Origin: Candidatus Solibacter sp. | GTDB taxonomy: Bacteria; Acidobacteriota; Terriglobia; Terriglobales; Acidobacteriaceae | DNA length: 40,903 bases | Assembly: GCA_035569515.1 (NCBI GenBank) | Contig: DATMMY010000274.1 | Location: 1-40,903, forward strand | Direction of reading: 5' to 3' | Shown here: in pieces, positions 9,515 through 28,491 of the stretch | Numbering within the stretch: position 1 is the first letter of the stretch | How the letters are laid out: every line of letters starts with the position of its first letter | Notes under the pieces: generated by a model | Told to the model about the DNA's origin: nothing | The model's database searches: none | Seen by the model: the letters and a program-made list of their open reading frames with translations, nothing else | Made by a program: the position numbers and the translations under genes

Positions 9515-10816
9515 TTAATTAACCGCCCGCAGAAAAGGGCTGGCTGATGTTGCCAGCTTTACGCGGGCCTCATTCACGCGGGTTCTTGAAGGCTGCCATC
9601 CCAGATGCTGCCACACGGCCCGCATGGATTCCTTGCCTTCGGCATGGTCAACTATCTCTTTCAGCGCCAGTTCCGGCCGTGACAAAGGATAAGGAATGCT
9701 CTTCGGCGACAGCCTGAAACTCCCGTGCTCGTCCCGAACGAAGTTCCTCTGGAGCGTCCTGGCCGGCGCCCACGCCGCCGCCATGAACGCATCGCATACT
9801 TCCTGCTCGCTTTTTCGCGGAAAAGGACTGTTCTGGCGCTGGAGATAGAACCAGAGCATTGGCGACTGATCATTCAGCAGAAGGTTGCCCATCTGCCATC
9901 GCATAACATCCGGCAGCTTTTCATACGTCTCACGCAACGGAAAATCGTCACAGTCCAGGTCCCATGAGCAAGGCAGGTTGCGATATTTCATTAAGGGACT
10001 GACGGTGGGTATGAGCAACTCCAATCCGGCCGCTTTCGCCAGCGAGGCAAGAGATTCCACGGTGTAGGTGTGTTCCACTGGCTGAATGAGCAGATCAGCG
10101 ATATCCGATTCCGATCGCTCTTCAAGTGATGTGAGCCATTGCCCCATCGGTGTATTGCCGGGCACGCTCTTGATCAACGCTCTGGCGATTTCAATATCAT
10201 CGCTGAAATCAGCCCGTCCAGCCTGCTTACCCAAAATTTGTACAGCTTCCTGAAAAGCAATCGGCAATGTCCTGTGATAGCTGTTATAAACCATCAACTC
10301 CAGGATCCCGTCAGGCTTCAATGCCGCCGCAAGCGTAGAAAGAGCAGCCGCCGGGTCGGCATTGTGGTGGATGACGCCGGTGCAGAGGATGTAGTCAAAA
10401 TGATCGCGGTCAGCCCCGGCGGCAATACTCTGTTGCCTGAGGGTAAGGTTCTCAACATTAATGGAACCTGCCACTCGGCTCGACAATTCCAACGTAGCCG
10501 CCGAAAGGTCGGTGCCAAGCACTGAGGCCTCAGGAAATCGCAGTGCAGTCTGGATGGCCTGATTCGTTCCGCAGCCAACTACCCATATCTTCGAGTCCCT
10601 TGGCAATCGCCGATGGGTGAAGTCTCCGATGCTCTGACAAAGCATTACCCGTTCAAAATCGGGGTCCTCAAGATAATCGAACTTCGCCGCCAGCGGCGGA
10701 TACGGAAACCGGCTGTAGAATTCAGCATTGAGCCGATCGACGCTCTCTACGGATGCGAGGGGATTCTCCTGGCCGATCCGCTCACTAAGATGGGTATTGG
10801 GAGCGAAACTTGTCAT
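9515..10816 (-). CDS. Class I SAM-dependent methyltransferase with a C-terminal extension of about 170 aa
   Basis: Glycine-rich motif I KIWVVGCGTNQ followed by the acidic LGTDLS; FDYILCTGVIHH and the ILELMVY post-motifs. 433 aa. ATG at 10816. Confidence 0.75.
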   Translation of the reverse strand: MTSFAPNTHLSERIGQENPLASVESVDRLNAEFYSRFPYPPLAAKFDYLEDPDFERVMLCQSIGDFTHRRLPRDSKIWVVGCGTNQAIQTALRFPEASVLGTDLSAATLELSSRVAGSINVENLTLRQQSIAAGADRDHFDYILCTGVIHHNADPAAALSTLAAALKPDGILELMVYNSYHRTLPIAFQEAVQILGKQAGRADFSDDIEIARALIKSVPGNTPMGQWLTSLEERSESDIADLLIQPVEHTYTVESLASLAKAAGLELLIPTVSPLMKYRNLPCSWDLDCDDFPLRETYEKLPDVMRWQMGNLLLNDQSPMLWFYLQRQNSPFPRKSEQEVCDAFMAAAWAPARTLQRNFVRDEHGSFRLSPKSIPYPLSRPELALKEIVDHAEGKESMRAVWQHLGWQPSRTRVNEARVKLATSASPFLRAVN

Positions 10817-10882: not shown

Positions 10883-13800
10883 CTACCGGGACTGCGTCGC
10901 TGCCAGGGACTTAGCGGAGATAGCCGGAATCGCCGCCGCTGCTGGAACTCCTTTGCTCATCGAGTCTTCGATGACATGGGCAAGGGCTTCAATGGTTGGG
11001 AGCTGAAACAGCCGTGGCAGGGGGATATCAATCGCAAATTCCTTTCGCACGCGAGCAATCATGCGCATAGCGAGAAGTGAATGGCCGCCGAGCCTGAAGA
11101 AGTTATCGGTGGCGCCCACTTGCTCGATATTTAGCACTGACGCCCAGATCCGCGCGAGCGCAGTCTCGACTTCACCAACGGGCGCTCTGAAATCCGTCTT
11201 GGCTTCCGAGGAGGTGGCGCCAGGATCCCGGAGCGCATCGCGGTCAAGTTTTCCATTTGCGTTGAGGGGCAGCGCCTCAAGACCAACATACGATACCGGA
11301 ATCATATATTCCGGCAAACGGGAAGCCAGAAACTCCTGCAGCGCTGAAGGAGCAGGGCTCTGCGCTCCGGATGGCACGAAATACGCTACAAGCCTGGTAT
11401 TTCCAGGGTCTTTGAAAGCTTTTATCACAGCTTCCTTTACGCCCGGATATTCCTGCAATGCGGCCGCGATCTCGCCCAGTTCAACGCGGAATCCGCGAAC
11501 TTTCACCTGATGATCAACGCGCCCCGCGTACTCGAGCGAGCCGTCCGGCAGATGCCGGACCAGGTCCCCGGTCCGATACAACCGCTCTCCCGGCTTCGCG
11601 GCAAACGGGTGCGGAACAAATCGCTCCGCCGTCAGCGGCGCTGCTCCCCAGTATCCGCGCGCCACTCCATATCCGCCAATGCATAATTCGCCGGTCGCCC
11701 CTGGAAGCACCAGTTGAAGGGACTCTTCCAGAACGTATACCTGTACATTGGTGAGAGGCCGGCCAATCGACACTTGCGCGTCCGCCTTGATTGCAACTGC
11801 CGTGCTGTCTACGGTGCATTCGGTAGGGCCATAGACATTGTAGAAAGTCGTCTGCCGGCTGGACGCCAGCTTACCCCAGAGCTGATCATCAATGGCTTCG
11901 CCGCCAATCAAAGCAATCGAGGGTGCGTACGCCTGGTCGCTTTCCAGGCCTGCTTCGAGCAGAACGCTGAGGTGAGAAGGCGTGCAGTCGAGAACGTCAA
12001 TTCGCTGCTCGCGAATGTACTCGACGAACGCGTGCGGTGTCGTGCGCACGGCTTCAGGAATCAAATGAAGCTCATGGCCGCCCAACAGGGTCACGAGTTG
12101 CTTGACCGAAGCGTCAAATGAGATTGGGGCATTGACGGTAACTTTCAGAGGCCCTGTTGCGCGGCAATACACCTCGCGTTGCAGTGCGCGCCATAGATTG
12201 ATCACCGAGCGGTGTTGCACCATTACGCCTTTGGGCCTGCCCGTGGATCCAGATGTGTAGATGATATAGGCCACGTTCTCCGGCGCCGCTTTGATCTCGC
12301 GCGGTGGCGCCCCGTCATGTAGCTGCTGCGCCGGGTCGTCCACATAGATGATTTGAGCCTGGGAATCAGCCAGGTATTCGCGGAACTTCCTTTGCGTAAC
12401 CACGACCGGGGTGCGTGTTTCCGAAAGGACGTGCTCGACGCGCTCTTTTACCGGGTAAGCCGTCTCCAGTGGCACATACGCGCCACCAGCCTTGAGAATC
12501 GCCAGGAGCCCGACGATCATTTCCACCGACGGCTCGATGAACAGACAGACCGGCACGTCTGGCCTGAGCCCTAACTTGCGGAGCCGCTGGGCCAGCAAAG
12601 ACGCCTTGCCGTGCAGCTGCTGATAGGTCAGCTTATCTTGGCCACAGACCACCGCAATTGCGTTGGGGGAACGCTCGGACTGCTCATCGAATAATTCGTG
12701 CACACACCGGCTGGCTTCGAACGGCTCGCTGGTGCTATTCCAATCGACAAGCAGCAGACGCCGGTCCTCGGCCCCCAGGCTATTGATATGCGCAACCGGT
12801 TCGTTCGGGCGGCCGGCAATGAATTCACAAAAAGACTCGAACTGGCTGGCCAGCCTCTCCACATGCTGGCGCGTCAACGATCCGGAATGGTAGACGAGTG
12901 TTCCGCCAATTTCGGCGCCAGTGTGAAAGCAATCCAGCTTTAACTCGAAGGGATAGGTATCGGCGCGCTGGGTCCGAATTTTGAACCGTATTTCACCCGC
13001 CGCGGGCGACGATGTTTCGCCGGTAAAGGAATATCCGAACGGGCCCAGTGTCGTGGCTTGGGTGTCCGTGGGGGTTGGAGGAGTGTAATAGTTTTGCCAG
13101 AGCGCCGCCTGCTCCAGACTCTCACATGCGCGCCCAATGGCGTAATGCAAGTCGGCGTCGGCGGAAAGTTGCATGGTTACGGGCACCGCCTGCGCGTAAG
13201 GCCCCATACCGGTGCGGAACTCTTCGTATGGGCGGCCGTCCATCACCACGCCGACATTCAATATTGAAGGCCCGGTGAGGCGATAAAGAAAGAGGCTCCA
13301 GCAAGCCAGCAGCAAGGCCTCAAGCGACTGCGCGGCAGCCGGCTTCAGCGCAAACAGGTTTCTGGAGACTTCCGGCGACAACCGGAATGAAACAAAACCA
13401 AGTGGCAGTGCTGCGCGCGCAGGCCGTTGCCCGGTAAGCCGCAATTCTCCCTTGCCATTGGCGGCCTGCTGCCGCCAGTAGGTTCGGCCTTGCTGCGTGA
13501 GGTCGTCGCTCTCGCTAGTGATCTCCTCACGCCAAGATGCGTATTCCACATATTGCAAAGGAGGATCAGCTTCCGCCGCCATCGGCCTCTCGTACTCTTC
13601 CGCCACTTCACGAATAATTTGCCGTAAAGTCGCGTAGTCGGCGAAAGTCCCTGGCGCACTGATAATTAGAGCGTGCCGGACTGCCGCCAGCGGGACGAGT
13701 GTTGCCCGCACAGGGTACTCGGGCTCGGCTGTGTTTGGTTCTGCCGCCCCAACCTCGATCAGTTGGTCGCTCCCCTGCTGTCCTTCTTCTAACCGCCAGA

Positions 13801-14065
13801 CCGCCGCATCAAACCGGTCCCATGCGATCTCCTTGGATACCTCTTGAACCGGGAATTTCAACCCAGGTACTGGCACGAGCCGGGAACGCAGAATTTCGTG
13901 CCGCCGGACGACCTGTTGCAAGGCCCGCCGCAGACGCGCGTGATCAAGTGCGCCTTCAACATCCCAGGTAATCTGCACATGCGGCAACTGCGTGGAACTG
14001 CGAAAAGCCCATGCACTTTTCTGCTGTGGCGACAAACCGTACAAATCAGGAGTGATCGATGACAT
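10883..14065 (-). CDS. NRPS2: C-like domain lacking catalytic histidines, then A, then T
   Basis: C1-like LSPQQKSAW and C2-like RRHEILRSRL, but SAPGTFAD in place of HHxxxDG. A domain: AYIIYTSGSTGRPKG, FDASVKQ, NVYGPTE, YRTGD, ANGKLDR. T domain: FFRLGGHSLL. ATG at 14065, 17 nt after the stop of the upstream gene. Confidence 0.95.
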   Translation of the reverse strand: MSSITPDLYGLSPQQKSAWAFRSSTQLPHVQITWDVEGALDHARLRRALQQVVRRHEILRSRLVPVPGLKFPVQEVSKEIAWDRFDAAVWRLEEGQQGSDQLIEVGAAEPNTAEPEYPVRATLVPLAAVRHALIISAPGTFADYATLRQIIREVAEEYERPMAAEADPPLQYVEYASWREEITSESDDLTQQGRTYWRQQAANGKGELRLTGQRPARAALPLGFVSFRLSPEVSRNLFALKPAAAQSLEALLLACWSLFLYRLTGPSILNVGVVMDGRPYEEFRTGMGPYAQAVPVTMQLSADADLHYAIGRACESLEQAALWQNYYTPPTPTDTQATTLGPFGYSFTGETSSPAAGEIRFKIRTQRADTYPFELKLDCFHTGAEIGGTLVYHSGSLTRQHVERLASQFESFCEFIAGRPNEPVAHINSLGAEDRRLLLVDWNSTSEPFEASRCVHELFDEQSERSPNAIAVVCGQDKLTYQQLHGKASLLAQRLRKLGLRPDVPVCLFIEPSVEMIVGLLAILKAGGAYVPLETAYPVKERVEHVLSETRTPVVVTQRKFREYLADSQAQIIYVDDPAQQLHDGAPPREIKAAPENVAYIIYTSGSTGRPKGVMVQHRSVINLWRALQREVYCRATGPLKVTVNAPISFDASVKQLVTLLGGHELHLIPEAVRTTPHAFVEYIREQRIDVLDCTPSHLSVLLEAGLESDQAYAPSIALIGGEAIDDQLWGKLASSRQTTFYNVYGPTECTVDSTAVAIKADAQVSIGRPLTNVQVYVLEESLQLVLPGATGELCIGGYGVARGYWGAAPLTAERFVPHPFAAKPGERLYRTGDLVRHLPDGSLEYAGRVDHQVKVRGFRVELGEIAAALQEYPGVKEAVIKAFKDPGNTRLVAYFVPSGAQSPAPSALQEFLASRLPEYMIPVSYVGLEALPLNANGKLDRDALRDPGATSSEAKTDFRAPVGEVETALARIWASVLNIEQVGATDNFFRLGGHSLLAMRMIARVRKEFAIDIPLPRLFQLPTIEALAHVIEDSMSKGVPAAAAIPAISAKSLAATQSR
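13637..13660 (-). other. Degenerate active-site motif of the NRPS2 C-like domain (SAPGTFAD instead of HHxxxDG)
   Basis: The reverse complement reads AGT GCG CCA GGG ACT TTC GCC GAC. Aligning on the conserved Asp places Pro-Gly where His-His is expected. Confidence 0.7.
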
Positions 14066-14082: not shown

Positions 14083-17000
14083 TTAATGTTGGCCAACCAC
14101 CATTGCCTGCTGGGCCTGGCTGTTCACAGAGGATTCGGCCATGATGACCAGGATCTTACGGGCCCCGGCAAAACTATCGCGGCCATGGGCAATCGCCATG
14201 TTATCCACGAACACGACATCGCCTTGCTGCCAGGGCAGGCGGATCGCCACCTTATCGTAGGTTTCCCGAATGTGATCAAGCATCCGGCTTTCGATAGGTG
14301 TTCCATCGCCGAAGTAGGTATTGCGCGGCAATCCTTCCTCGCCCAGTTCCGCTAGCAATGATTCCCGCAGGTTCGACTCAAGGTTCGAGGCATGGAAAAG
14401 ATGTGCGTGGTTGAACCAGATCTCCGTCCCTTTGGAGGGGTGCTTGATAATGGCCGGCGCTATGCGGGTCGTTCTCAGGCGATCGCGGCTGAGCCATTCC
14501 CATTGGGTATTCGCAGCGCGGCAGTATTCCTCGACTTCCGCCGGATTGTTGGTACCAAACACTTCCTGCCATGGCAGATCGACGCCCCCGCCATAGTTTC
14601 TGACGTACATTATCTTCTTCTCGCGGAATATCTCCCGGACAACCGGATCAAGCGCTTTCAGAAAGTCCTGATCGTCGGCAAGCGGCGTCAGTCCACCCTG
14701 TTGGGCTGGAGTCTGGCAGAAGAAGAAAACCTTCATTGGCCACTTGTAAGAGAACGCGTTTTCATGATGCATCGGAATCGGATATTCCGGAGGATACTCG
14801 GTTGAGGTATAGACCCGTTGTGCAACCTCTATCCTCGGGGCGGCCCGCTCCGAAAATTCCAGCATCTCGTCTGTAAAGCAACCTGCAAACCGGCGGAAGT
14901 CATCTTGGTTCGCAAGTCCGAACCCGCGAAACAGCAGAGCGCCATGAACTTCGAGGAGATTATTCATTTGGGTCCGATTCGAGCTGGCCCACTCAAAAGC
15001 ATCCAGATCGGGCGTTGCCGGTTGAACAACCAGGGGTAGACGATAGTCGGTGCCTTCCGGGGTGCCGAAGTGAACGAGATTGCGGTCGACTTGCAGCGGC
15101 ACACGCCGCCGTTCGAACCGGCGGGCCGCCGATGGTGACGCCGCGGGAGCGGAGTTCGCCGCGCTCTGCTGGCTCGCCTGGTTTAGGATTTTTTGCCAAA
15201 TCGTATCGGTGCCGCTTTCTTCAGCTTTGCGCCATTCCTCAATCCTGGAGGCAGCGTTGGGGGCACAGCGCACTGTCGCCCACACTTGATTCCCTTTCAT
15301 CAATAGCCTTACGGCAATGGCACCGGAGTGCGGTAGATCATCTTCAACCATGAACCCTTCGGGTTTCCAATCATCGCTTCCCGTCCACGGCTCAGCCGTT
15401 GCATATTCGAGAGTTATTGATACTGCTGCTCCCGCTTTTCGCCGGCGGAGTGCAAAAGCTTCGTGCAACTCCTTCTTCAGATTTCGCAAGTCGTCAACTA
15501 TGTTGGAGCCAGCTTCAGGCAACGACACCGTATATGTTGCGTGGAGTGGTCCACATGTATCTGCCAGATTGGGTTGCAGCATCCGGAGATCCGCGCAACA
15601 GTCAACCGTTTCGCCGCCGGTGAGGGAAAGCGCTCGAACCACGCCTCCAAAGAGCAGCTCTGTGAATGAAACCCCAATGCTCTTGAGTAACTTCGGGGTA
15701 AAGCTCTTGACCAGATCGGCCTGGAGGGCAACCGTCTCTATGCGATTGGAACTATCAGGCCGGCTGTCCGAAGCAAGGGTGTTAGATTGCTCTTCCCATA
15801 CCGCAGACCGGGAAAACAGATAGTCGCGATAGGTTATTTCGCGGGGCCGGAAAGTCACTTTATGTCCATTCGCCAGTTGCTCGTATACGCGGACCAGGTC
15901 CTCAAGCAGTAATATGGCCGTCCTGCTGTCGGCGATGGCCGGGTGAATGGCCAGGGCAACACAGGCTGAATCAGGTCCATTTATGGCCGTCACTTGCAAC
16001 GACTCGCCCGCGATCGGCTTCATCTCCCGGCAAGCAGGCCGCGCAACTTCGTTGAGTGCCGCGAGATCGGGCTCGACTGCCTGCTCAGCATAGTTCACGA
16101 TTCGCGATAAAGCGCCCTCGGGTAGCGAAGCGACACGGATCCCACCGTCAATCACGTCGTATTGCAGAATGTCGTTGTAGAGAATCAGGGCTTCGGTTGC
16201 CTGCCGCAAAATCTCCTGATCAAGCCTCTTCGATACCCGAACTCCATACATCACGCCGGACTGCGCATCGTACCTCGCCACCGCAGGCGCCGGAACCGTC
16301 ACAGTGCGCTCGTGTTGCCCCACACTGAACGGCTTGCGCGTGATCTGCGTGCCTTCAAAGAACTCTTTCGCGAGTGGATACAATGCCTGCCAACGTGCCT
16401 CAGCCTCATAGCGCGCTTGTAGTGTATGCAGATTGGGAATGCCCAGCTCCGTCGCCAGATCATTAATCCGTCGCAACCGGTCAAACTTGACCGCGCGGGG
16501 CGGGTCGCTGTTCACAATCTCCCACTGCTGGAACTTGATGGCCTTTCTCACTCGCTCGGAATAAAGCGGATAGCAGCGGTGTATCCGCGACCAAACCTGT
16601 CCGTACGGATAGTAGTAGTAATAGTGAACATCCAGTTCGTAGATATACCGATGATGTTCGCGGATAAAGTCGATGGTTTCCTGGAAATCCTCCTCGGTTT
16701 CTCCGGGAAAGCCGACGATCCACAGGGTCGTCACGCGAATGCCCGCATTGGCAAGCGTTTTGATTGCCTTGGAAATTCCTGCGGGCGTCGTCTGCTTCTG
16801 CATTGCCTTAAGGACTTTCTCGGAAGCACTCTCAATTCCGAGCCGGGTGCGGACGCATCCGGAGCGGGCCCATCTCGCCACTTTTTGTTTGTCAGTCGCG
16901 ATCTTGTCGGCCCGAAGGTAGCCGTCGTAGAGGACCGGTGCGCCCTGACGAAGCAAAGAAGTCGAAAGATCTTCGATATATGGATTCATCAGCGAGTCGC

Positions 17001-18003
17001 CCATGAAGAACGTTTTGTTCTCATAGTGCGTTGCCAGCTCGATCATCTGCTGCGCAAGAATTCCCGCCGGTTTTTTGCGATACCCGCCCCACTGGACTGT
17101 TTCCGAACAGAAACTGCATTGAAAAGGACAGCTCCTCGCCCCTTCGATACAAAGATGGAGATAATCCGGGAGGTGGAAGTCGGTGTAGTCGGGAATCCGC
17201 AGCTCAGCGGGGTTTAAAGCGGTGGAACCTACGCGCTCACGCATGAGCAAACGTTCCCCTCGCAGCTTTCCATTGAGCAGATCATGGAACAACACCTCGC
17301 CTTCTCCCATGACGATATGATCGACAAACGTGAATTCCTCAAGCAGGGCAGCAAGGTTGTCGGAACCATCGGCCAGATCGTCGGCGAAGACGCCGCCCCC
17401 CATCACCGTCATCCGATCGGGATAAAGTTCTTTGACCCGCTTCAGGATGTAAAGGGATGGTCCGAGAGAAGTCGAATACGTGCTGGTACCTACGACCGCA
17501 AATGATTTGAGGTCGACCTCCGTGGTAATGATCCTCTCAATATCGCGGAACAGGCGAGTCACGATGGGGACGAGGCCGTTGACGACTTCCGCCTTGGGCT
17601 TTAATTCGTAGACTGTCAGAATCTCATTCAGCAAGGCGGCGCAGTCGCCGGGGCCGGCGCCATTAAGGTGCGCCATCATGTGCGCTTGCAGTATGTACCA
17701 GAGATTCGTGTATCCATGCTGCACTGAGAGCCCTTCCAAATGCTGCAGCAATTCGAAATACTTGTGGTGCGCGACCCAGATGTCCGGAATTGTATTGAAG
17801 TCAAAGCACTTGACATGATAGCCGTGTTGCTCCAGATAGGACTTCAGCACGGAGATGCCCAGCGGCGGCGTATACGGCGTGTAGAAGGGTGGCAGTAAAA
17901 GCAGGATATTGCTCCCGCTTGGCACGGGCTCCCCGTGGCGTATGTCTTGAACTTTATGCTCATCCCCATTGCGAATTGAGCTCACTTCCACGTGCATCTC
18001 CAT
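14083..18003 (-). CDS. Three-part fusion: B12-binding radical SAM (aa ~30-550), degenerate condensation-like domain (aa ~570-930), TauD/TfdA Fe(II)/2-oxoglutarate dioxygenase (aa ~965-1290)
   Basis: Uninterrupted 1306-codon ORF. ATG at 18003 follows a strong AAGGAG Shine-Dalgarno 6 nt upstream. N-terminus: ILLLLPPFYTPYTPPLGISVLKSYLEQHGYHV (B12-binding-like) and CPFQCSFC. Middle: ALAIHPAIADSRTAILLLEDLVRVYEQL, a C-domain-like context around a degenerate HHxxxDG. C-terminus: PMHHENA and DNMAIAHGR, a His/Glu/His facial triad as in SyrP-like enzymes. Confidence 0.9.
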   Translation of the reverse strand: MEMHVEVSSIRNGDEHKVQDIRHGEPVPSGSNILLLLPPFYTPYTPPLGISVLKSYLEQHGYHVKCFDFNTIPDIWVAHHKYFELLQHLEGLSVQHGYTNLWYILQAHMMAHLNGAGPGDCAALLNEILTVYELKPKAEVVNGLVPIVTRLFRDIERIITTEVDLKSFAVVGTSTYSTSLGPSLYILKRVKELYPDRMTVMGGGVFADDLADGSDNLAALLEEFTFVDHIVMGEGEVLFHDLLNGKLRGERLLMRERVGSTALNPAELRIPDYTDFHLPDYLHLCIEGARSCPFQCSFCSETVQWGGYRKKPAGILAQQMIELATHYENKTFFMGDSLMNPYIEDLSTSLLRQGAPVLYDGYLRADKIATDKQKVARWARSGCVRTRLGIESASEKVLKAMQKQTTPAGISKAIKTLANAGIRVTTLWIVGFPGETEEDFQETIDFIREHHRYIYELDVHYYYYYPYGQVWSRIHRCYPLYSERVRKAIKFQQWEIVNSDPPRAVKFDRLRRINDLATELGIPNLHTLQARYEAEARWQALYPLAKEFFEGTQITRKPFSVGQHERTVTVPAPAVARYDAQSGVMYGVRVSKRLDQEILRQATEALILYNDILQYDVIDGGIRVASLPEGALSRIVNYAEQAVEPDLAALNEVARPACREMKPIAGESLQVTAINGPDSACVALAIHPAIADSRTAILLLEDLVRVYEQLANGHKVTFRPREITYRDYLFSRSAVWEEQSNTLASDSRPDSSNRIETVALQADLVKSFTPKLLKSIGVSFTELLFGGVVRALSLTGGETVDCCADLRMLQPNLADTCGPLHATYTVSLPEAGSNIVDDLRNLKKELHEAFALRRRKAGAAVSITLEYATAEPWTGSDDWKPEGFMVEDDLPHSGAIAVRLLMKGNQVWATVRCAPNAASRIEEWRKAEESGTDTIWQKILNQASQQSAANSAPAASPSAARRFERRRVPLQVDRNLVHFGTPEGTDYRLPLVVQPATPDLDAFEWASSNRTQMNNLLEVHGALLFRGFGLANQDDFRRFAGCFTDEMLEFSERAAPRIEVAQRVYTSTEYPPEYPIPMHHENAFSYKWPMKVFFFCQTPAQQGGLTPLADDQDFLKALDPVVREIFREKKIMYVRNYGGGVDLPWQEVFGTNNPAEVEEYCRAANTQWEWLSRDRLRTTRIAPAIIKHPSKGTEIWFNHAHLFHASNLESNLRESLLAELGEEGLPRNTYFGDGTPIESRMLDHIRETYDKVAIRLPWQQGDVVFVDNMAIAHGRDSFAGARKILVIMAESSVNSQAQQAMVVGQH
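15925..15951 (-). other. Degenerate HHxxxDG-equivalent (AIHPAIADS) in the middle domain of the fusion
   Basis: The reverse complement reads GCC ATT CAC CCG GCC ATC GCC GAC AGC. Only one His is present and the His-to-Asp spacing is off by one relative to the canonical motif. Confidence 0.6.
17107..17130 (-). other. CxxxCxxC radical SAM motif of the fusion protein
   Basis: The reverse complement reads TGT CCT TTT CAA TGC AGT TTC TGT, which is C P F Q C S F C (aa 292-299). Confidence 0.9.
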
Positions 18004-18075
18004 ATCAACTCCTTACGTGTCGAACAAAATTGTCAGCGGGTAAACGGTGCCCCGCATACGTTACTTGAAGGGATT

Positions 18076-21000
18076 TCAGTTTGATCGGCGAGACCGGACG
18101 AATTGCCGTAGGTGGAGGTGCAGAGAAGCCTCCATCTTCTGTGCGACCTGATCGTGCCGCCATGCTGTAAGAGATCCACGGACAGCTTCAACGGTGGATT
18201 TCGCGTGGGCTGCGATCATGGGCAAGCAGGCCGCAAACACCTCGAGAACCTGCCGCGCCCCGCCTGCAGAAAAACGTCTCTTGTCAAAGGAAGCTGTCAG
18301 CTGTATCTCCTCGTGCGGTTCAACGTCGATACAAAACGCATAGTTCGTCCAACCACCACTGAAGGCCACATTCTCAATGGGCAGCCGGATTGGCCGTCCT
18401 TCTCTGTAGCTTGAAGGAGCCAGCGCCAGATTTTGAAACCCAACGGTAGTTTCAAACAGAGGGGTTCCTCTGGGAATCTCGCTGCAAGACTGAACGTGCA
18501 CAAGCGGAACATCGCTGTACTGGCGGACTCGCGCCTGCTCGTCCTGAAGGTTCCGCAGCCACGTCTCTACTCCAGCCTGGTGTGCGAGACGGACCCTCAC
18601 AGGCACCATGTTGAGAAATAAACCAATTGTTCTCTCAATACCCGGCACTTCCGGCGGGCGCACCGCCACGGCAGATCCGAACATCACGTCCGTATCGCCG
18701 CCGTACTCGCCAAGAACCAGGGCCCAGGCCGCTTGTGTGATCGTATTGAGGGTTATCTGGCTCCGGCGGGAAAGTTGCCGCAAGGCGTCGCTGCTATCTC
18801 GATCCATTACTATCTGAACGCATTCCCAGGCGGCAGGCTGTTCAGGATTGGCTGCCAGGCCGCTTTCTCCCGGGACGGCTGTGGGAGTTCGAAATCCGCT
18901 TAAGCACTCGCGCCAGAAGCTGTCGCTCCGGGTCATGTCTTTGCTTTGCAGCCACTGCACAAAGGCGTGATACGGCGCAGGGGCTGGAAGGGTGCAGGGA
19001 ACACCACGCCGGAACCCATCGTAGAATGACTCCAATTCATCGAACAGGACGCCTTCTGACCAACCGTCCATCAGCAGATGATTGTAGATAAACACGAAAT
19101 AATACCGTGCGTCCGGCAGCGCAATCAGCGCCATCCGCATCAGTGGCGCAATATCGAGGTCTATGCCGGAGCGATGGATGTCCGCACAGTAGCGTTCAAG
19201 GCGCTCTTCGATTTCTCCAGGTGCACAGGTGCTCCAGTCCTGGCGGTCGATGCTCAAAACGAGATCGCGCTGCACTACCTGGCCTGGGTCTTCCTGGTCT
19301 CGCCAATCGAACGCGGTGCGTAATATGCTATGGCGATCAACGACGCACTGCCACGCACGCATGAAGGATTCCGGATCAAACTCTGGTCCGAATGTCCAGA
19401 CCGCCTGTGACACATAAAGCCGCTCTCCTGCGGAGCTGAGGCAATGAAAAAGGATCCCTTCCTGCACCGCGGTCAGCGGATAGCGTTCGCTCATGGCGCT
19501 TGCGCCTGCGGCATGGCCAGAGACGCTCGCCGTCGGCGAGGCAACGTCTGCCAGCCGCCTTGGCGTTGGATTCTGAAATAACTGAATGGGCGTAATCTGC
19601 ATGCCTGCGTGACGCATCAATGCGGCAACGCGAATCGCCCCGATCGAATCCCCCCCAAGCTCGAAGAAGTTGTCTTCATTGCCGATGTGAGCGCACCCAA
19701 GGACCTCTTTCCATATCTCCGTGATCGTCCGTTCGACCTTCGTTTGCGGTGCGCCTGCGATCTTCGTAGCCTCTGGTGGACCAGAAGCCAGCGCCAGCAA
19801 CTGCTTTCGGTCCGTTTTGCCATTTGGCAACAGCGGCAGGGAGTCGAGCCACACGAAGGCGGACGGCAACATCGATGGCGGGAGTTGCGCCGCGAGAGCG
19901 GCTTCAACCTCCCGTGCGCCGCTATCGCAGCCTTTTTTTGCCGTGACAAACGCAAGCAAACGCGCCGTGCCGGCTTTATCGGTCTGAACCAGGACCGCCG
20001 CGGCGGCAACGGATGGATGCTGAGTAAGAATGGCTTCAATCTCCGCCGGTTCGACGCGATGGCCTCGAATTTTTACCTGGTCATCGATGCGCCCCACAAT
20101 CTGAATCTGGCCATTTCTGCGAAGGCGCGCCCGGTCTCCGGTGCGATAGAGCCGCCGCCCGCGCCCAGATGAAAAGGGATCGGGCACAAACCGCGTCGCC
20201 GTTTCCGCGGCTTGCCTCAAGTAACCACGTCCCAAACCTGCTCCACCGATAAACAGTTCACCCGGCATGTTCACCGCAACCGGGCGCATGGCTTCGTCGA
20301 GCACGTAGCATTCCGCGCCCGGCAGTGGTCTGCCTGCATATAGAATTGCCGGCAGCAGAACCTCTTCCCGGGCATTCACTCGTTGCATCAGGCAACCGAC
20401 GGTCGTTTCCGTGGGACCATAGTGATTCGCGACAGCACAAGCTCCGCCGGCGGCCCGTATCTGTGCGTAGAGGTCCGCCGAGAAGGGCTCTCCGCCCAGA
20501 ATCAGCCAGCGCCGAGGCAGCACGTCTTTCCCATGGGTCAGCAACGCGCGAAAGTGGGATGGCACAATCTTCAGCACGTCGATGCGGTTAGAAGTTATAT
20601 ACCGGGCAAAATCGGACGCATCCATTGCCATCGTCTTCCCCACTAAATGAAGACAGCCTCCGGTGGTGAGCGCCGGAAACACGCATGTGTGCCCCAGATC
20701 AACCGCCAGACTGCAAGCCACAGCAAATGAGAGGGCGGGCCTCTTCTTTGCCAGCGCCAGTCGTTCCTGGATGCCGTGCGTATAACTGGCCAGAGCATGG
20801 TGCGGCACGCCCACAGCCTTTGGACTCCCTGTCGAACCGGAAGTGTGAATTACGTATGCAAGGCCCTCCGGATTCACCGTTTCGATCTCAGCGGTTGCCT
20901 CGCTTTTGCCTTTGGAGATGATGTCGCCAATGAAAATTGTCGGCACACCGTCTACCGCGGAATGTTCGTCGTGAGCTTGCGTGGTCAAGATGATCTCGAT

Positions 21001-22134
21001 CCCGCTCGCGGCGATTTGCTTCGCATGGTACACGGCCGGGGTATCGGGGTCGAGAGGCGCGTAGGCGCCGCCCGCCAACATGACACCCATGATTGCCGCG
21101 ACAGTATGAATCGAACGCTCGGCCAGAACGCCCACCAGAACATCCTGCCCTGCTTTTCGCCCGCGGAGGTAACGTGCGATTGCGATTGCCTCAAGGAATA
21201 GTTCTCGGTAGCTAAGCCGTCCGTCCAATGCGACAACCGCAGTCCGGTCCGGAACCCGGCGTACCTCACCAATAAACATGGCGGGCACCGATTGGGATTT
21301 TCCTTGGCGGGCCGGCGGAGTGCGGACCGGTTGAGGACGGTCGGTCACAGTCAGCATCGCAACCGAAGTATCCATCGCTGCTACGGCATCTCCGCATAGC
21401 TGCGTGAATTGGCGTGCTACGAGAGATACATCTCGACGGTCTATACGACCGGCGTCATACCCAATTTTGATACAGATACCACTTGGTGCGAGTTCACACC
21501 AGCAGCACAAGAGAAACTTATCCTGCGGTATGTTCGTTTCGCTCTTCAGCCGTGCCGGCCTGCCGGATTTCTGGGACGCTGGCAACCGTCGAGCTCCGAA
21601 CAATACCGTGAACGCAGCCGGCGCCCGCTCCTGGTCATCTTTCGGCAGAAGGCGATCCTGTTGTCGGACTTGATTGTCGATCTGCTCCTGCACGTTCCTG
21701 ACAAACTCGTCGATCAATATACCCGTCTCCGGATTGCAAATGACGGGGAACCATTGATGGCGCGGATGCAATGGGTAGGCCCGTGACGGCTCCGTCAGCC
21801 GATCCAGCGTTACGCCAGTCACGTGTGCGGAGCGATCCAGCAATTGCCAAATCAGCAGTTGCCAGACAGCAACCAGATACGCTTCTGGCTGTAACCCGGC
21901 CTGATCTGACCATTTCTGGATAACCTTGGCAAGGTTACGGCTGAGTCGTACACTCACCGTCTGCGCTTTGCATGCCTCTATGGCACTCCCGAAGCGCTCA
22001 ATTGGAAGAGTTTGCGGTATGTGTTCAACCCAGGCGCGACCTTCCAGTCCGGACGCCACCTCCATCCGCCGGCTGCGAGATGAAGACTCCGTCTCCCGAT
22101 GAATCATGGAATCTAGTTCTGCGGTTGCCTTCAT
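18076..22134 (-). CDS. NRPS1: N-terminal half condensation domain (C-terminal lobe only), then A, T, C
   Basis: The roughly 270 aa before the A domain include LQPEAYLVAVWQLLIWQLL, typical of the second half of a C domain, with no C1-C3 motifs. A domain: AYVIHTSGSTGSPKA, AVDLGHT, NHYGPTE, YRTGD, PNGKTDR. T domain: FFELGGDSIGA. C domain: YPLTAVQEGILFH and YNHLLMDGWS. The ORF-track start is TTG at 22185; ATG at 22134 (MKATAEL) has AAGGA 5 nt upstream and is preferred. Confidence 0.95.
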   Translation of the reverse strand: MKATAELDSMIHRETESSSRSRRMEVASGLEGRAWVEHIPQTLPIERFGSAIEACKAQTVSVRLSRNLAKVIQKWSDQAGLQPEAYLVAVWQLLIWQLLDRSAHVTGVTLDRLTEPSRAYPLHPRHQWFPVICNPETGILIDEFVRNVQEQIDNQVRQQDRLLPKDDQERAPAAFTVLFGARRLPASQKSGRPARLKSETNIPQDKFLLCCWCELAPSGICIKIGYDAGRIDRRDVSLVARQFTQLCGDAVAAMDTSVAMLTVTDRPQPVRTPPARQGKSQSVPAMFIGEVRRVPDRTAVVALDGRLSYRELFLEAIAIARYLRGRKAGQDVLVGVLAERSIHTVAAIMGVMLAGGAYAPLDPDTPAVYHAKQIAASGIEIILTTQAHDEHSAVDGVPTIFIGDIISKGKSEATAEIETVNPEGLAYVIHTSGSTGSPKAVGVPHHALASYTHGIQERLALAKKRPALSFAVACSLAVDLGHTCVFPALTTGGCLHLVGKTMAMDASDFARYITSNRIDVLKIVPSHFRALLTHGKDVLPRRWLILGGEPFSADLYAQIRAAGGACAVANHYGPTETTVGCLMQRVNAREEVLLPAILYAGRPLPGAECYVLDEAMRPVAVNMPGELFIGGAGLGRGYLRQAAETATRFVPDPFSSGRGRRLYRTGDRARLRRNGQIQIVGRIDDQVKIRGHRVEPAEIEAILTQHPSVAAAAVLVQTDKAGTARLLAFVTAKKGCDSGAREVEAALAAQLPPSMLPSAFVWLDSLPLLPNGKTDRKQLLALASGPPEATKIAGAPQTKVERTITEIWKEVLGCAHIGNEDNFFELGGDSIGAIRVAALMRHAGMQITPIQLFQNPTPRRLADVASPTASVSGHAAGASAMSERYPLTAVQEGILFHCLSSAGERLYVSQAVWTFGPEFDPESFMRAWQCVVDRHSILRTAFDWRDQEDPGQVVQRDLVLSIDRQDWSTCAPGEIEERLERYCADIHRSGIDLDIAPLMRMALIALPDARYYFVFIYNHLLMDGWSEGVLFDELESFYDGFRRGVPCTLPAPAPYHAFVQWLQSKDMTRSDSFWRECLSGFRTPTAVPGESGLAANPEQPAAWECVQIVMDRDSSDALRQLSRRSQITLNTITQAAWALVLGEYGGDTDVMFGSAVAVRPPEVPGIERTIGLFLNMVPVRVRLAHQAGVETWLRNLQDEQARVRQYSDVPLVHVQSCSEIPRGTPLFETTVGFQNLALAPSSYREGRPIRLPIENVAFSGGWTNYAFCIDVEPHEEIQLTASFDKRRFSAGGARQVLEVFAACLPMIAAHAKSTVEAVRGSLTAWRHDQVAQKMEASLHLHLRQFVRSRRSN

Positions 22135-22191
22135 GTCAGTCCTTATACCGCGTGTCTTTAATATTTGCGAAATGCGTGACCGCAATCCGCC

Positions 22192-23244
22192 TCAGGCGGA
22201 CGCGAGATCTGTGTATTGGACCATTTCGCCCATTGCGACCAGTATTTTGCGAGGCCCCACATAGGGATCGCGACCGTGAGCGACAAGCATGTTGTCTACC
22301 AGCAAGATATCTCGCGCCTGCCACTGGAAACGTACGGCCACTCGGGCGTATAGCTGCTCAACCTGTCTTATCGTCTCGTCCGGGATCTTCGAACCATCAC
22401 CGAAATACACGCTACGAGGCAAGTCTGTTTCCGGATACAGGGTCAGCAACGATGCGCGCACCTGTGGCGGCAGGCCGGCAACATGATGCAATAGGATCTG
22501 GTTGAAGAAAACCATCTGCCCGGTCTTCGGATGCGCGGCAAAAGCGCGGCTTTTGCGAAAGGTCTGCAAAGTTTCCCCCTTCCACGCGCATTCGATCCCC
22601 CCTGTTTTGCAGATACTCTCCACCTCTGCCCGATTATTGGTCTTAAAGAAGTCCTGCCAGCTCACGTCCAGCCCCGGGATAAAATTACGCACATACTTCA
22701 GGCCCTTGTTCCCGAACTCCTCCCGTAGAGATTCATCGAGTTCGGCATAGATCCTCCTGCCGTCCGCGATCGGCGTACAGCCGCCTGCTGTGGACGGCAG
22801 CGCACAGTAGAACCATTGCTTCAGTGGCCACTTGTGCGTGTGTGACCCTTCGTGATGGAACAAGATGGAACGATCGGGAGGATACGGCGTCGACTCGTAT
22901 ATATTCAAAGCAATCTTGGCCCGCGGCAGATCGCCATATTCCGTAAAGAGATCGGAACACAGAGCCTTGGCGCACTCTTCGAAGGTCTCCGCCGACGAGA
23001 CCGCGAATCCACGGAGCAGCACCGCACCATGCTCCAATAGCTTTGCCTGCACTGAATGCCTGTTCTGCTTCAGCCACTCAACAACATCAAGTTGACCGTC
23101 TTCAGCCTGAAATCCGAGCGGCAGCAACTGCTCGGGCTGAAAGAGAAACTCCCGGACATCAGCCAGTCGACGGCCGCGGTGTGAGGTTCGCGGCGAGACG
23201 GGCTTGCGGGTGCCCTTCTTTACTGTATCTCGCGTATCACGCAT
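22192..23244 (-). CDS. Stand-alone TauD/TfdA-family Fe(II)/2-oxoglutarate dioxygenase (SyrP-like), paralogous to the C-terminal domain of the fusion
   Basis: Motifs LFHHEGSH and DNMLVAHGR. It aligns by eye along its whole length with aa ~1015-1290 of the fusion (shared LLRGF, YPP, HHE, KYVRN, WQDFF/WQEVF, YFGDG, VDNM.AHGR, KILV.M). ATG at 23244. Confidence 0.85.
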   Translation of the reverse strand: MRDTRDTVKKGTRKPVSPRTSHRGRRLADVREFLFQPEQLLPLGFQAEDGQLDVVEWLKQNRHSVQAKLLEHGAVLLRGFAVSSAETFEECAKALCSDLFTEYGDLPRAKIALNIYESTPYPPDRSILFHHEGSHTHKWPLKQWFYCALPSTAGGCTPIADGRRIYAELDESLREEFGNKGLKYVRNFIPGLDVSWQDFFKTNNRAEVESICKTGGIECAWKGETLQTFRKSRAFAAHPKTGQMVFFNQILLHHVAGLPPQVRASLLTLYPETDLPRSVYFGDGSKIPDETIRQVEQLYARVAVRFQWQARDILLVDNMLVAHGRDPYVGPRKILVAMGEMVQYTDLASA

Positions 23245-27038: not shown

Positions 27039-27166
27039 GTTTCTCTCTCAGAGAGGCGGTAACTGCTCCGCCTCATGCTCTCAATGGACAGCTGTCCGTC
27101 TCCGGCGGGAAGAACCATTTGATATCCACCACCGTGTTCCGGTCCGCGCACGCTCGCCCCAGTTCC

Positions 27167-28039: not shown

Positions 28040-28350
28040 GGCGCAGTCCCCAGAGCGCGGGAATGCAAGACCGCGGCAAACAACTTTTCGTCCATGGCAA
28101 GGGCACGAGACAGCTTCTCGATCGAAGGGTGGTCAAACGTCGCCCCCGGATCGACCTTATGGCCCAACCAGTCGCCTAAGTTCCCGGTCATTCCAACCAC
28201 TACGGAAGAATCGAGCCCATACCTCTCAAAAGAGGTTGTGAGATCAATCTCCTCTTCGGGACGCTCCAGGATCTGGGCCAGATATGCCTTGCACCAATTC
28301 GCAATTTGAGCTTGCAATAATTCAGGCGTCAATATCGTTTGTTGAGTCAT
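28036..28350 (-). CDS. Stand-alone acyl carrier protein
   Basis: 104 aa with the phosphopantetheinylation motif YGLDSSVVVGM. Translationally coupled to the methyltransferase gene. Confidence 0.8.
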   Translation of the reverse strand: MTQQTILTPELLQAQIANWCKAYLAQILERPEEEIDLTTSFERYGLDSSVVVGMTGNLGDWLGHKVDPGATFDHPSIEKLSRALAMDEKLFAAVLHSRALGTAP

Positions 28351-28491
28351 GTAATTCCCGGTCGAACTTTATTCGGTCAGATTTTTTTTGAAGTCCATCT
28401 TTACATCGATGTCCCGCGCCACCTTGCCCGGAGTGTCTGGAGAGGGCCCTGCGAGCGCCGCCATTTCACGCCAAGCCGTTACCCATCCCTA

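What the first reader, a model, noticed from the sequence alone, without database searches (positions are those of the whole stretch)
14083..18003. Single 1306-aa polypeptide fusing a B12-radical SAM enzyme, a degenerate condensation-like domain and a TauD dioxygenase, wedged between two NRPS genes
Seen in sequence: there is one uninterrupted ORF with a strong AAGGAG ribosome-binding site. It carries (i) a cobalamin-binding-like N-terminus plus CPFQCSFC, (ii) a roughly 360-aa middle region whose context (ALAIHPAIADSRTAILLLEDLVRVYEQL) looks like an NRPS condensation fold with the HHxxxDG motif degraded to IHPAIAD, and (iii) a complete TauD/SyrP-like domain (HHE ... AHGR). The gene sits 72 nt downstream of NRPS1 and 17 nt upstream of NRPS2. 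Established knowledge: SyrP-type TauD enzymes hydroxylate the beta-carbon of carrier-protein-bound amino acids. In siderophore pathways they are sometimes fused to, or partnered with, non-catalytic C-like 'interface' domains. Class B (B12) radical SAM enzymes typically methylate or rearrange unactivated carbons. Inference: the middle domain may act as a docking scaffold that presents a T-domain-tethered residue to two different oxidative or radical catalysts in one protein. That could yield a residue both C-methylated and hydroxylated. I am not aware of a described radical-SAM/C-like/TauD architecture, but I cannot search to confirm novelty.
Basis: partly seen in the sequence, partly recalled or inferred. 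Interest (0 to 1): 0.85.

Follow-up and report, generated by a model that had tools for sequence, protein, structure and literature searches.

The report
Radical-SAM/C-like/TauD NRPS tailoring fusion
A real, conserved 1306-residue protein joins a B12-type radical SAM enzyme, a non-catalytic condensation-fold domain and an iron/2-oxoglutarate hydroxylase, and it appears to be the fused form of an undescribed enzyme pair that tailors a carrier-bound glutamate inside a peptide assembly line of uncultivated soil bacteria.

Summary
One intact 1306-aa ORF lies on the minus strand at 14083-18003. It has an AAGGAG ribosome-binding site and sits 72 nt after one NRPS gene and 17 nt before the next.

Its parts are a class-B radical SAM region (CPFQCSFC), a roughly 365-aa condensation-fold domain (C*), and a complete TauD domain. 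C* is modelled at pLDDT above 90 and matches NRPS C, E and X domains at Foldseek E about 1e-17. Its catalytic histidine is lost (HPAIAD; family consensus HRxxxD).

Seven independent metagenomic loci carry the same three-part gene, so it is not an assembly artefact.

New context:
- rSAM-C* two-part proteins are a sizeable, apparently undescribed family. They occur in Acidobacteriota and Thermoflexales MAGs and are always embedded at NRPS module junctions.
- The three-part form is rare.
- In related clusters a stand-alone TauD and rSAM-C* are adjacent genes in front of an 'I-A(Glx)-T' module.
- In the window the fusion is followed by such a module: a histidine-less interface-type domain, an A domain with a Glu code, and a T domain.

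Best reading: both catalysts modify Glu tethered to NRPS2, by beta-hydroxylation and probably C-methylation, with C* as a rigid docking platform for the radical SAM part. The chemistry is inferred, not shown.

Verdict: new variant of a known kind. Interest about 0.66.

The parts
14083..18003 (-). Complete ORF of the three-part fusion protein (1306 aa plus stop)
   Evidence: Orthologues P0002-P0008 are full length at 54-68% identity.
18004..18019 (-). Ribosome-binding site AAGGAG, with a 5-nt spacer before the ATG
   Evidence: Read directly from the sequence.
16339..18003 (-). Class-B (cobalamin-type) radical SAM region, residues 1-555. It comprises a Rossmann-like B12-binding part (about 33-250), a radical SAM core (283-470) with the cluster motif C292-x3-C296-x2-C299 (17107-17130), and a family-specific C-terminal extension containing YYYYYPYGQ.
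   Evidence: Pfam. NCBIfam nearest family is TIGR03975, RiPP C-methyltransferase, at 127 bits against a cut-off of 282. Identity to orthologues is 70-80%. AF2 pLDDT is mostly above 90.
15154..16251 (-). C* : a compact, non-catalytic condensation-fold domain, residues about 585-950. In the C3 motif position it has H687-P-A-I-A-D692 (15925-15948). It also carries the family-specific motifs LLEDL and EPWxGxDxWxPxGF.
   Evidence: Pfam 20.5 bits. phmmer against PDB C domains, with HPAIAD aligned to HHIAAD of 7kvw. AF2 plus Foldseek, E about 1e-17. Motif census: 68 of 96 members have HR, only 1 has HH.
15010..15153 (-). Low-complexity Ala/Ser/Arg linker between C* and TauD, residues about 951-998. 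Close two-part relatives end shortly after the equivalent RFxxRxR stretch.
   Evidence: Alignment A1. pLDDT below 50.
14146..15009 (-). TauD/TfdA-type Fe(II)/2-oxoglutarate dioxygenase domain, residues 999-1286. The facial triad is H1079, E1081, H1273.
   Evidence: Pfam 149 bits. PDB 1y0z at 2e-33 and 9yut at 9e-32. It is 40% identical to the stand-alone TauD at 22192-23244. Its nearest relatives are stand-alone TauDs at 49-61% identity.
10883..14065 (-). NRPS2, the partner module I-A(Glu)-T. The N-terminal interface-type C-like domain has SAPGTFAD in place of HHxxxDG. The A-domain code is DAKDLGVVD (Glu).
   Evidence: Pfam. Motif and clustering. A code. The same arrangement is found in all seven three-part loci.
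18076..22185 (-). NRPS1: a truncated I-type C-lobe, then A(Asp, DLTKIGHVG), T, and an active C domain (NHLLMDG) that should condense onto NRPS2.
   Evidence: Pfam. A code. The N-terminal 305 aa match the C-lobes of I-type domains at E 8e-9.
22192..23244 (-). Stand-alone TauD paralogue, probably the Asp beta-hydroxylase serving NRPS1.
   Evidence: Pfam 150 bits. It occupies the conserved position upstream of the Asp module in L001, L027 and L028.

Best explanation
The ORF encodes a trans-acting tailoring protein of a small lipopeptide-type NRPS line. The line runs: TauD | (half-I)-A(Asp)-T-C | rSAM-C*-TauD | I-A(Glu)-T | MT | rSAM2 | C-A(Asn-like)-T-TE.

The protein is the fused form of a recurring cassette of three elements:
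- a stand-alone TauD hydroxylase;
- a cobalamin-type radical SAM enzyme rigidly joined to a non-catalytic condensation-fold domain (C*);
- a downstream module that starts with a histidine-less C-like domain.

Proposed mechanism:
1. Glu is loaded on the T domain of NRPS2.
2. The T domain visits the fusion protein before, or coupled to, condensation by the active C domain at the end of NRPS1.
3. C* supplies the carrier-protein docking surface and the pantetheine channel that a normal C domain would use, but feeds the substrate to the radical SAM active site. The most likely reaction is methyl transfer to an unactivated side-chain carbon, as in the nearest characterised relatives.
4. The C-terminal TauD domain, working with the I-type domain of NRPS2, beta-hydroxylates the same tethered Glu.

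Shown: the architecture, the fold, the loss of the catalytic His, the conservation, the gene neighbourhoods and the A-domain codes.
Inferred: carrier-tethered Glu as the common substrate, methylation as the radical chemistry, docking as the role of C*, and the order of the two reactions.
For: 1. Architecture and fold.

2. rSAM and C* are predicted as one rigid unit (mean pLDDT 87, pTM 0.88 over 960 residues). They co-occur in hundreds of proteins. Full-length C* matches are found essentially only behind an rSAM domain among 1.84 billion representatives.

3. C* lacks the catalytic second His in 95 of 96 scored members. It evolves faster (31-49% identity) than the two catalytic domains (rSAM 70-80%, TauD 60-74%), as expected of a scaffold.

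4. All seven three-part loci have the fusion followed immediately by I-A-T. Six carry a Glu code (DAKDLGV[VG]D) and one a Gln-like code.

5. Unfused equivalents exist:
- L032 repeats [TauD | rSAM-C* | I-A(DAWQFGLIE)-T-C] twice.
- In L031, TauD overlaps the start of rSAM-C*, which is followed by I-A(DAWQYGLIE).
- In L018 the upstream NRPS ends in C-TauD, then comes rSAM-C*, then halfC-A(Asn)-T.
- In L025, TauD is followed by rSAM.

6. In the long two-part loci the downstream module is Asn (6 loci) or Gln (2 loci), while the upstream modules vary. This points to the downstream acceptor residue as the target.

7. The upstream C keeps HHxxxDG, and the downstream N-terminal C-like domain never does.

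8. Precedent: MxgA (...C-Ox) beta-hydroxylates Glu-S-PCP of MxgB (I-A(Glu)-PCP), and GlmF needs an I domain (PMC13638107).

9. The nearest curated families of the rSAM part are B12-dependent C- and P-methyltransferases. A B12 rSAM (DscE) is known to C-methylate a nonribosomal peptide (PMC12858407).
Against: - No biochemical data exist. No product is known, and all relatives come from metagenomes or MAGs.
- The rSAM part scores far below the cut-off of every curated family. Chemistry other than methylation, as seen in some class-B enzymes, is therefore open.
- The closest two-part relatives (P0010, P0012, P0070) sit in front of FAAL-initiated giant NRPSs rather than an I-A(Glx)-T gene. An acyl-ACP or another module could therefore be the rSAM substrate in that subclade.
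- DscE acts on the released peptide, not on a carrier.
- The I domain was dispensable in the myxoglucamide system.
- The TauD half of the model was poorly predicted (shallow alignment), so nothing can be said about C*-TauD packing.
- An O2-labile Fe-S enzyme fused to an O2-requiring dioxygenase is mechanistically awkward.
Confidence: 0.55

Rival explanations
1. Split targets. The TauD domain hydroxylates Glu on NRPS2. The rSAM-C* half acts on a different carrier-bound substrate: Asp on the T domain of NRPS1 (the donor side of the same junction), or the fatty acyl chain on the stand-alone ACP.
For: - The fusion gene lies between the Asp and Glu modules.
- The closest two-part relatives precede FAAL-ACP loading modules.
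- The window and L028/L029 encode FAAL, ACP and desaturase.
- A C-fold domain has both donor and acceptor carrier sites (established knowledge of C domains).
Against: - In long two-part loci the upstream module is variable while the downstream one is always Asn or Gln.
- The L032 cassette repeats with only Glx-type modules and no FAAL.
- L001 conserves the cassette without a nearby FAAL.
- Two TauDs and two I-type domains already account for the Asp and Glu hydroxylations.
Confidence: 0.2
2. Post-assembly action. C* merely anchors the enzyme to the NRPS megacomplex or binds the peptide. The radical SAM domain modifies the peptidyl intermediate or the released peptide, as DscE does for discodermin.
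For: - DscE, a B12 rSAM, methylates free discodermin D in vitro (PMC12858407).
- The nearest curated family is a RiPP peptide C-methyltransferase.
Against: - The strict placement at 'C | rSAM-C* | (I or half-C)-A-T' junctions, and the correlation with the downstream A-domain code, argue for a module-specific, on-line step.
- DscE has no C-like domain.
Confidence: 0.12
3. C* is catalytic. It might act as an unusual acyltransferase or starter condensation domain that attaches the FAAL/ACP-delivered lipid, or as a dehydratase or epimerase, so the protein would have three active sites.
For: - The cluster has only two canonical C domains for three modules plus a lipid tail, and no obvious starter C domain.
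- D692 and several other residues are invariant.
- Some atypical C-like enzymes are active (MxgH, PMC13638107).
Against: - The second His is absent in 95 of 96 members, and even the first His is replaced by Asp in some.
- The myxoglucamide study reports that this His is essential in MxgH.
- C* is the fastest-evolving part of the protein.
- L001 conserves the cassette without the lipid genes nearby.
Confidence: 0.08
4. Artefact. The single ORF results from a sequencing or assembly error that joins separate rSAM-C* and TauD genes.
For: - Unfused neighbours exist in related clusters.
- One orthologue (L030) is broken by a frameshift in a long-read assembly.
Against: - Seven loci from different samples and assemblers carry the same continuous three-part reading frame with a conserved linker.
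- The gene order differs from the unfused form. There TauD is upstream of rSAM-C*, whereas here it is C-terminal, so a simple read-through cannot create the fusion.
Confidence: 0.02

Closest known systems
Integrated beta-hydroxylase / interface-domain systems (IbetaH and TbetaH with I domains, Reitz et al. 2019). Experimentally: myxoglucamide MxgA(FAAL-ACP-C-Ox) with MxgB(I-A(Glu)-PCP), and glidomide GlmF with its I domain (PMC13638107).
   Same: - A TauD-family dioxygenase sits C-terminal to a condensation-fold domain.
- The next protein starts with a His-less C-like domain followed by an A domain with a Glu code and a T domain.
- The hydroxylase acts on the carrier-tethered residue (shown for MxgA/B, inferred here).
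   Different: - Here the C-fold domain in front of TauD is non-catalytic and belongs to a different clade, about 13% identical to the I-type domains of these loci.
- It is preceded by a radical SAM enzyme instead of an NRPS module.
- The active C domain sits on a separate protein (NRPS1).
X-domain of glycopeptide NRPSs (teicoplanin Tcp12; PDB 4tx2, 4tx3, 6m7l)
   Same: - A condensation-fold domain that has lost the catalytic His. From memory its motif is HRxxxDD; the family consensus here is HRxxxD.
- It serves to bring a redox tailoring enzyme and a carrier-bound substrate together.
- It appears among the Foldseek hits, at E 1e-14 to 4e-14.
   Different: - The X-domain is part of the NRPS and recruits free P450s. 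C* is part of the tailoring enzyme and would recruit the NRPS carrier domain.
- It is not the best structural match and shows no specific sequence relationship.
Cobalamin-dependent radical SAM C-methyltransferases acting on peptides or carrier-linked substrates (PoyB/PoyC-type, TIGR03975; DscE; CysS; TokK/ThnK)
   Same: - An N-terminal B12-type Rossmann domain plus a CxxxCxxC radical SAM core.
- The nearest curated families are C- and P-methyltransferases.
- DscE shows that such enzymes do tailor nonribosomal peptides (PMC12858407).
   Different: - It scores far below every family cut-off (127 bits against 282 for TIGR03975).
- None of the known enzymes carries a condensation-fold domain or a dioxygenase.
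- DscE acts after release of the peptide.
Stand-alone SyrP/TbetaH-type TauD hydroxylases of Acidobacteriota NRPS clusters
   Same: The TauD domain is 49-61% identical to many stand-alone proteins of about 345 aa, and 40% identical to the paralogue in the same window.
   Different: Here it is covalently attached to rSAM-C*.

Membership tests
Radical SAM superfamily, class B (cobalamin-dependent) | CxxxCxxC [4Fe-4S] motif within a radical SAM core | tested here: met
   C292-PFQ-C296-SF-C299. Pfam PF04055 scores 73.6 bits against a gathering score of 29.5.
Radical SAM superfamily, class B (cobalamin-dependent) | N-terminal B12-binding Rossmann-like domain | tested here: inconclusive
   PF02310 scores 30.8 bits, just below the gathering score of 32.1, in this protein. 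It passes in homologues: 32.4-42.1 bits. Actual cobalamin binding is not testable here.
Radical SAM superfamily, class B (cobalamin-dependent) | Membership of a curated methyltransferase family (for example TIGR03975, PhpK, KedN5) | tested here: not met
   Best hit is TIGR03975 at 127 bits against a cut-off of 281.85. PhpK scores 107 against 600. These are the nearest relatives, but the protein is not a member.
NRPS condensation-domain superfamily | Two-lobed CAT-like fold | tested here: met
   AF2 pLDDT is above 90. The top 50 Foldseek hits are all C/E/X/Cy domains, with E from 2e-17 to 4e-14 and TMt 0.5-0.63 over 420-470 columns.
NRPS condensation-domain superfamily | Pfam PF00668 above the gathering score | tested here: not met
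   This protein scores 20.5 bits against 30.6, over the N-lobe only. Family members pass at 33.8-104 bits.
NRPS condensation-domain superfamily | Catalytic HHxxxDG motif (second His) | tested here: not met
   HPAIADS aligns to HHIAAD of 7kvw. In the family, 68 of 96 have HR and 1 of 96 has HH.
Interface (I) domain of beta-hydroxylase systems - test applied to the middle domain C* | Located in an NRPS module directly N-terminal to the A domain of the hydroxylated residue, and clusters with I domains | tested here: not met
   C* lies in the tailoring protein, not in a module. Mean identity to the I-type domains of these loci is 13%, and BLASTP against the NRPS2 N-terminal domain is not significant. 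The curated antiSMASH I-domain profile was not available.
Interface (I) domain - test applied to the N-terminal domain of NRPS2 | C-like domain, no catalytic His, N-terminal to the A domain, partnered with a TauD enzyme | tested here: met
   PF00668 scores 124 bits. It has SAPGTFAD in place of HHxxxDG. The same domain type is next to TauD in L006, L012, L018, L031 and L032 and in all three-part loci. Phylogenetic placement with published I domains was not testable here.
Glycopeptide X-domain | Last-module C-like domain of a glycopeptide NRPS that recruits Oxy P450s | tested here: not met
   The context is different and there are no P450s in the window. The X-domain structures 4tx2 and 4tx3 are hits but not the best ones. 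It is an analogy in function only.
TauD/TfdA Fe(II)/2-oxoglutarate dioxygenases (SyrP/TbetaH-type) | PF02668 domain with an HxD/E...H facial triad | tested here: met
   149 bits. H1079, E1081 and H1273 align to 1y0z. They are conserved in all orthologues.
TauD/TfdA Fe(II)/2-oxoglutarate dioxygenases (SyrP/TbetaH-type) | Beta-hydroxylation of a carrier-protein-bound amino acid | not testable with these tools
   Inferred from the context (I-A(Glu)-T downstream) and from MxgA/MxgB (PMC13638107).

The most novel reading that the evidence does not exclude
rSAM-C* proteins are a previously unrecognised class of NRPS tailoring enzymes. In them, a cobalamin radical SAM catalyst has captured a dead condensation domain as its own carrier-protein docking module. 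This lets it functionalise unactivated side-chain carbons of T-domain-tethered Asn, Gln or Glu on-line, with dedicated partner domains (C-lobe-only half-domains or I-type domains) at the start of the target module. The window's three-part protein additionally hard-wires an O2-dependent hydroxylase to this O2-sensitive enzyme, giving a doubly modified (hydroxy-, methyl-) glutamate. This could be a route to C-methylated Glx residues whose biosynthesis is unknown.
Probability: 0.4. Interest if true: 0.8.

Novelty: new variant of a known kind. Interest (0 to 1): 0.66.

Why it matters
Carrier-protein-directed C-H functionalisation in NRPS lines is so far known for P450s (recruited through X-domains or direct PCP binding), Fe/2-oxoglutarate hydroxylases and halogenases, and flavoenzymes. 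Radical SAM methylation of nonribosomal peptides has only just been shown, and only after peptide release.

A family in which the radical SAM enzyme carries its own condensation-fold docking domain would matter in three ways:
- It would extend the 'dead C domain as recruitment platform' principle to radical chemistry.
- It would give a sequence handle for genome mining: the HRxxxD C* domain plus a histidine-less or half C-like domain at the start of the target module.
- It would offer a portable unit for engineering C-methylated or hydroxylated Asx/Glx residues.

The fusion of an O2-sensitive and an O2-dependent catalyst also raises a concrete biochemical question.

The family is confined to uncultivated Acidobacteriota and Thermoflexales, groups rich in unexplored NRPS clusters.

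Tried and rejected
- Artefact or frameshift: rejected, because seven independent loci keep the reading frame.
- Middle domain as the Reitz-type interface domain: rejected. It is about 13% identical to the I-type domains, and the I-type domain is in NRPS2 instead.
- Fusion derived from the two stand-alone paralogues in the same window: only partly. The TauDs are 40% identical. The stand-alone rSAM at 7485-9407 is a different, KedN5-like family, 25% identical over 188 aa.
- Direct sequence search of PDB with C*: only marginal hits (E about 1e-3), so structure prediction was needed.
- The AF2 model of C*+TauD gave a poor TauD half because the alignment was shallow there. No conclusion on C*-TauD packing.
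- Foldseek of the rSAM-C* model was dominated by C-domain hits, so the closest structural relative of the rSAM half was not resolved.
- Literature searches for any description of a radical SAM/condensation fusion returned nothing relevant.
- The Reitz 2019 paper itself is not held, so its I-domain definition is taken second-hand from PMC12230676 and PMC13638107.
- The TauD-domain homologue search did not list the three-part orthologues themselves, for reasons I did not resolve.
- One contig (P0012) could not be fetched as DNA.

Full report
**1.

- The window contains one uninterrupted 1306-codon ORF on the minus strand, 14083..18003.
- The ATG is preceded by AAGGAG with a 5-nt spacer.
- The gene lies 72 nt after the stop of an NRPS gene (18076..22185) and 17 nt before the start of the next (10883..14065).
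- Pfam finds the four predicted domains in the predicted order:
  - B12-binding: 30.8 bits, marginally below the gathering score.
  - Radical_SAM: 73.6 bits.
  - Condensation: 20.5 bits, N-lobe only, below the gathering score.
  - TauD: 149 bits.
- The cluster motif is C292-x3-C296-x2-C299.
- The C3-motif position reads H687-P-A-I-A-D692.
- The TauD facial triad is H1079/E1081/H1273.
- Full-length orthologues at 54-68% identity (P0002-P0008) come from independent JGI, ENA and Logan assemblies and read through both junctions. A hidden frameshift is therefore excluded.

**2. The middle region is a condensation-fold domain, but a dead and distinct one**

- Sequence evidence alone is weak: Pfam is below the cut-off, and phmmer against PDB C domains gives E about 1e-3 with HPAIAD aligned to HHIAAD.
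- Two AF2 models built on family alignments give pLDDT above 90 for residues about 585-950.
- All top Foldseek hits are NRPS C, E, Cy or X domains, with E from 2e-17 to 4e-14, target-normalised TM 0.5-0.63 and 420-470 aligned columns.
- In the family the motif is HRxxxD in 68 of 96 members and HH in only one. In some members even the first His is Asp. The catalytic second His is therefore gone.
- A phmmer scan of 1.84 billion cluster representatives finds only 36 with E <= 1e-10. Full-length matches lie at about position 560-900 of proteins 950-1230 aa long, which are the rSAM fusions, or in fragments. Ordinary giant NRPSs match only through the N-lobe.
- I call this domain C*.
- It is the fastest-evolving part of the protein. 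Identity to orthologues is 31-49%, against 70-80% for rSAM and 60-74% for TauD.

**3. C* belongs to the radical SAM half**

- The homologue search returned 267 proteins at E <= 1e-10. Almost all of the 120 listed are two-part rSAM-C* proteins of about 950-1230 aa. They come from Pyrinomonadaceae, Blastocatellia, other Acidobacteriota and Thermoflexales MAGs.
- Only P0001-P0008 and the fragments P0013 and P0020 also carry TauD.
- AF2 predicts residues 1-960 as a single rigid body (mean pLDDT 87, pTM 0.88).
- The nearest relatives of the TauD domain are stand-alone TauDs of about 345 aa from the same phyla, at 49-61% identity.
- The three-part protein is therefore rSAM-C* plus a secondarily fused stand-alone-type TauD.

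**4. Gene neighbourhoods give the functional logic**

I annotated 32 related loci with the window's own domains. I extracted C3 motifs and read Stachelhaus positions from MAFFT columns.

(a) Long two-part genes always sit at a protein junction of the form '...T-C(HHxxxDG intact) | rSAM-C* | C-lobe-only half domain-A-T'.
- The downstream A code is Asn (DLTK[VI]GEVG) in six loci and Gln (DAWQFGLID) in two.
- The upstream modules vary.

(b) All seven three-part loci show '... | rSAM-C*-TauD | I-A-T'.
- I is a full-length C-like domain without His (SxPxxxxD).
- The A code is Glu (DAKDLGV[VG]D) in six loci and Gln-like in one.
- Five of the seven are preceded by (I or half-I)-A(Asp, DLTKIGHVG)-T-C, and four of those by a stand-alone TauD before it.

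(c) Unfused equivalents exist.
- L032 repeats [TauD | rSAM-C* | I-A(DAWQFGLIE)-T-C] twice.
- In L031, TauD overlaps the start codon of rSAM-C*.
- In L018, TauD is fused to the end of the upstream NRPS, directly before rSAM-C*.
- In L025, TauD precedes an rSAM without C*.

(d) The same I-type domain is found beside TauD genes or domains elsewhere (L006, L012, L018).
- The first 305 residues of NRPS1 in the window are the C-lobe of such a domain (E 8e-9).
- The window's two TauDs thus have two I-type partners, one for Asp and one for Glu.

**5. Comparison with known systems**

- The arrangement 'C-TauD | I-A(Glu)-T' is that of myxoglucamide MxgA/MxgB. There the Ox domain beta-hydroxylates Glu-S-PCP, in a step coupled to condensation. 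In glidomide biosynthesis the I domain is required for GlmF (PMC13638107). antiSMASH 8 now detects these domains (PMC12230676).
- The TauD half of the window protein therefore follows known logic.
- The rSAM-C* half resembles the glycopeptide X-domain principle: a dead C domain brings a redox enzyme and a carrier-bound substrate together (PDB 4tx2 and 4tx3 are among the hits). The topology is inverted, however, because the dead C domain sits on the enzyme rather than on the NRPS.
- B12 radical SAM methylation of a nonribosomal peptide is known only for DscE, which acts on the released peptide (PMC12858407).
- The nearest curated families of the rSAM part are B12 C- and P-methyltransferases, all far below their cut-offs.
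- Seven literature searches found no description of a radical SAM/condensation fusion. The library is incomplete, so this is absence of evidence only.

**6. Most likely mechanism (inferred)**

- Glu on the T domain of NRPS2 is presented to the fusion protein before, or coupled to, condensation by the C domain of NRPS1.
- C* provides the docking surface and channel for the radical SAM site, where C-methylation of an unactivated side-chain carbon is probable.
- The TauD domain, with the I domain of NRPS2, beta-hydroxylates the same residue.
- The stand-alone TauD does the same for Asp on NRPS1.

The main uncertainties are:
- the radical SAM chemistry and its site;
- whether the rSAM target is really the same residue, since the closest two-part relatives precede FAAL-initiated NRPSs;
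- how an O2-labile and an O2-dependent catalyst work within one polypeptide.

**7. Verdict**

- The three-part fusion is a rare derivative: about 8-10 clusters at 90% identity among 5.8 billion. It derives from a larger, apparently undescribed rSAM-C* family.
- I rate it a new variant of a known kind (C-fold-mediated trans tailoring on NRPS carriers), with interest about 0.66.

Noticed in passing
window 12731-14065 (-), N-terminal 445 aa of NRPS2: A full-length condensation-like domain with SAPGTFAD in place of HHxxxDG (Pfam 124 bits). It belongs to a domain type that always neighbours TauD in the related loci, so it is probably an interface (I) domain.
   Followed up: yes
window 21271-22185 (-), first ~305 aa of NRPS1: Pfam finds nothing here. 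BLAST shows it to be the C-terminal lobe only of an I-type domain (E 8e-9). The orthologue in L028 has the full domain. The annotated TTG start is probably too far upstream.
   Followed up: partly
window 7485-9407 (-) and 9515-10816 (-): A second, unrelated B12 radical SAM enzyme (KedN5-like, 323 bits against a cut-off of 700) and a 433-aa SAM methyltransferase lie between NRPS2 and NRPS3. The rSAM is absent from the otherwise syntenic L001. Homologues of the methyltransferase sit directly upstream of rSAM-C* in L007 and L009.
   Followed up: partly
window 23920-25912 (-): An SbnA-like PLP enzyme (236 bits against 350) overlaps a homoserine-kinase-like GHMP kinase. The pair is conserved in L001, and a PALP gene is also present at the P0012 locus. 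It suggests supply of a Dap-like or other beta-substituted amino acid, perhaps for the 'Asn-like' third A domain (DMTKVGEVG).
   Followed up: no
window 26040-31149 (-): A lipid-tail cassette: FAAL, membrane fatty-acid desaturase, ACP, cyclopropane-fatty-acid-synthase-like methyltransferase and KAS III. The NRPS genes contain no recognisable starter C domain, so how the acyl chain is attached is unclear.
   Followed up: no
L006-L011, L014, L018, L019 (genes downstream of rSAM-C*); P0034, P0113 etc. C-termini: The long (~1200 aa) rSAM-C* proteins carry an extra C-terminal C-lobe, which is a second Pfam Condensation stretch (profile 189-452). The NRPS that follows them begins with a C-lobe-only half domain of about 275 aa, starting just after where the HHxxxDG motif would be. 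The meaning of these half-domains is unexplained.
   Followed up: partly
L032 1-15076: A tandemly repeated cassette, [TauD | rSAM-C* | I-A(DAWQFGLIE)-T-C] twice. The repeats have the same BLAST identities to the window domains (TauD 45%, rSAM 67% in both copies), which suggests a recent duplication or a repetitive assembly line.
   Followed up: partly
L030 9298-13192: The three-part orthologue P0013 is split from its B12-binding part by a frameshift, and the neighbouring C domains are fragmented. This is probably long-read sequencing error rather than biology.
   Followed up: no
window 15130-15140 region (residue ~954): The database representative P0001 (listed at 100% identity) differs from the window translation by one residue in the linker (QQSAASSAP versus QQSAANSAP).
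   Followed up: no
window 31695-35629 (+): Xanthine-dehydrogenase-type molybdenum hydroxylase subunits (2Fe-2S/FAD and MoCo) are encoded on the opposite strand directly beyond the FAAL gene. This probably marks the cluster border.
   Followed up: no
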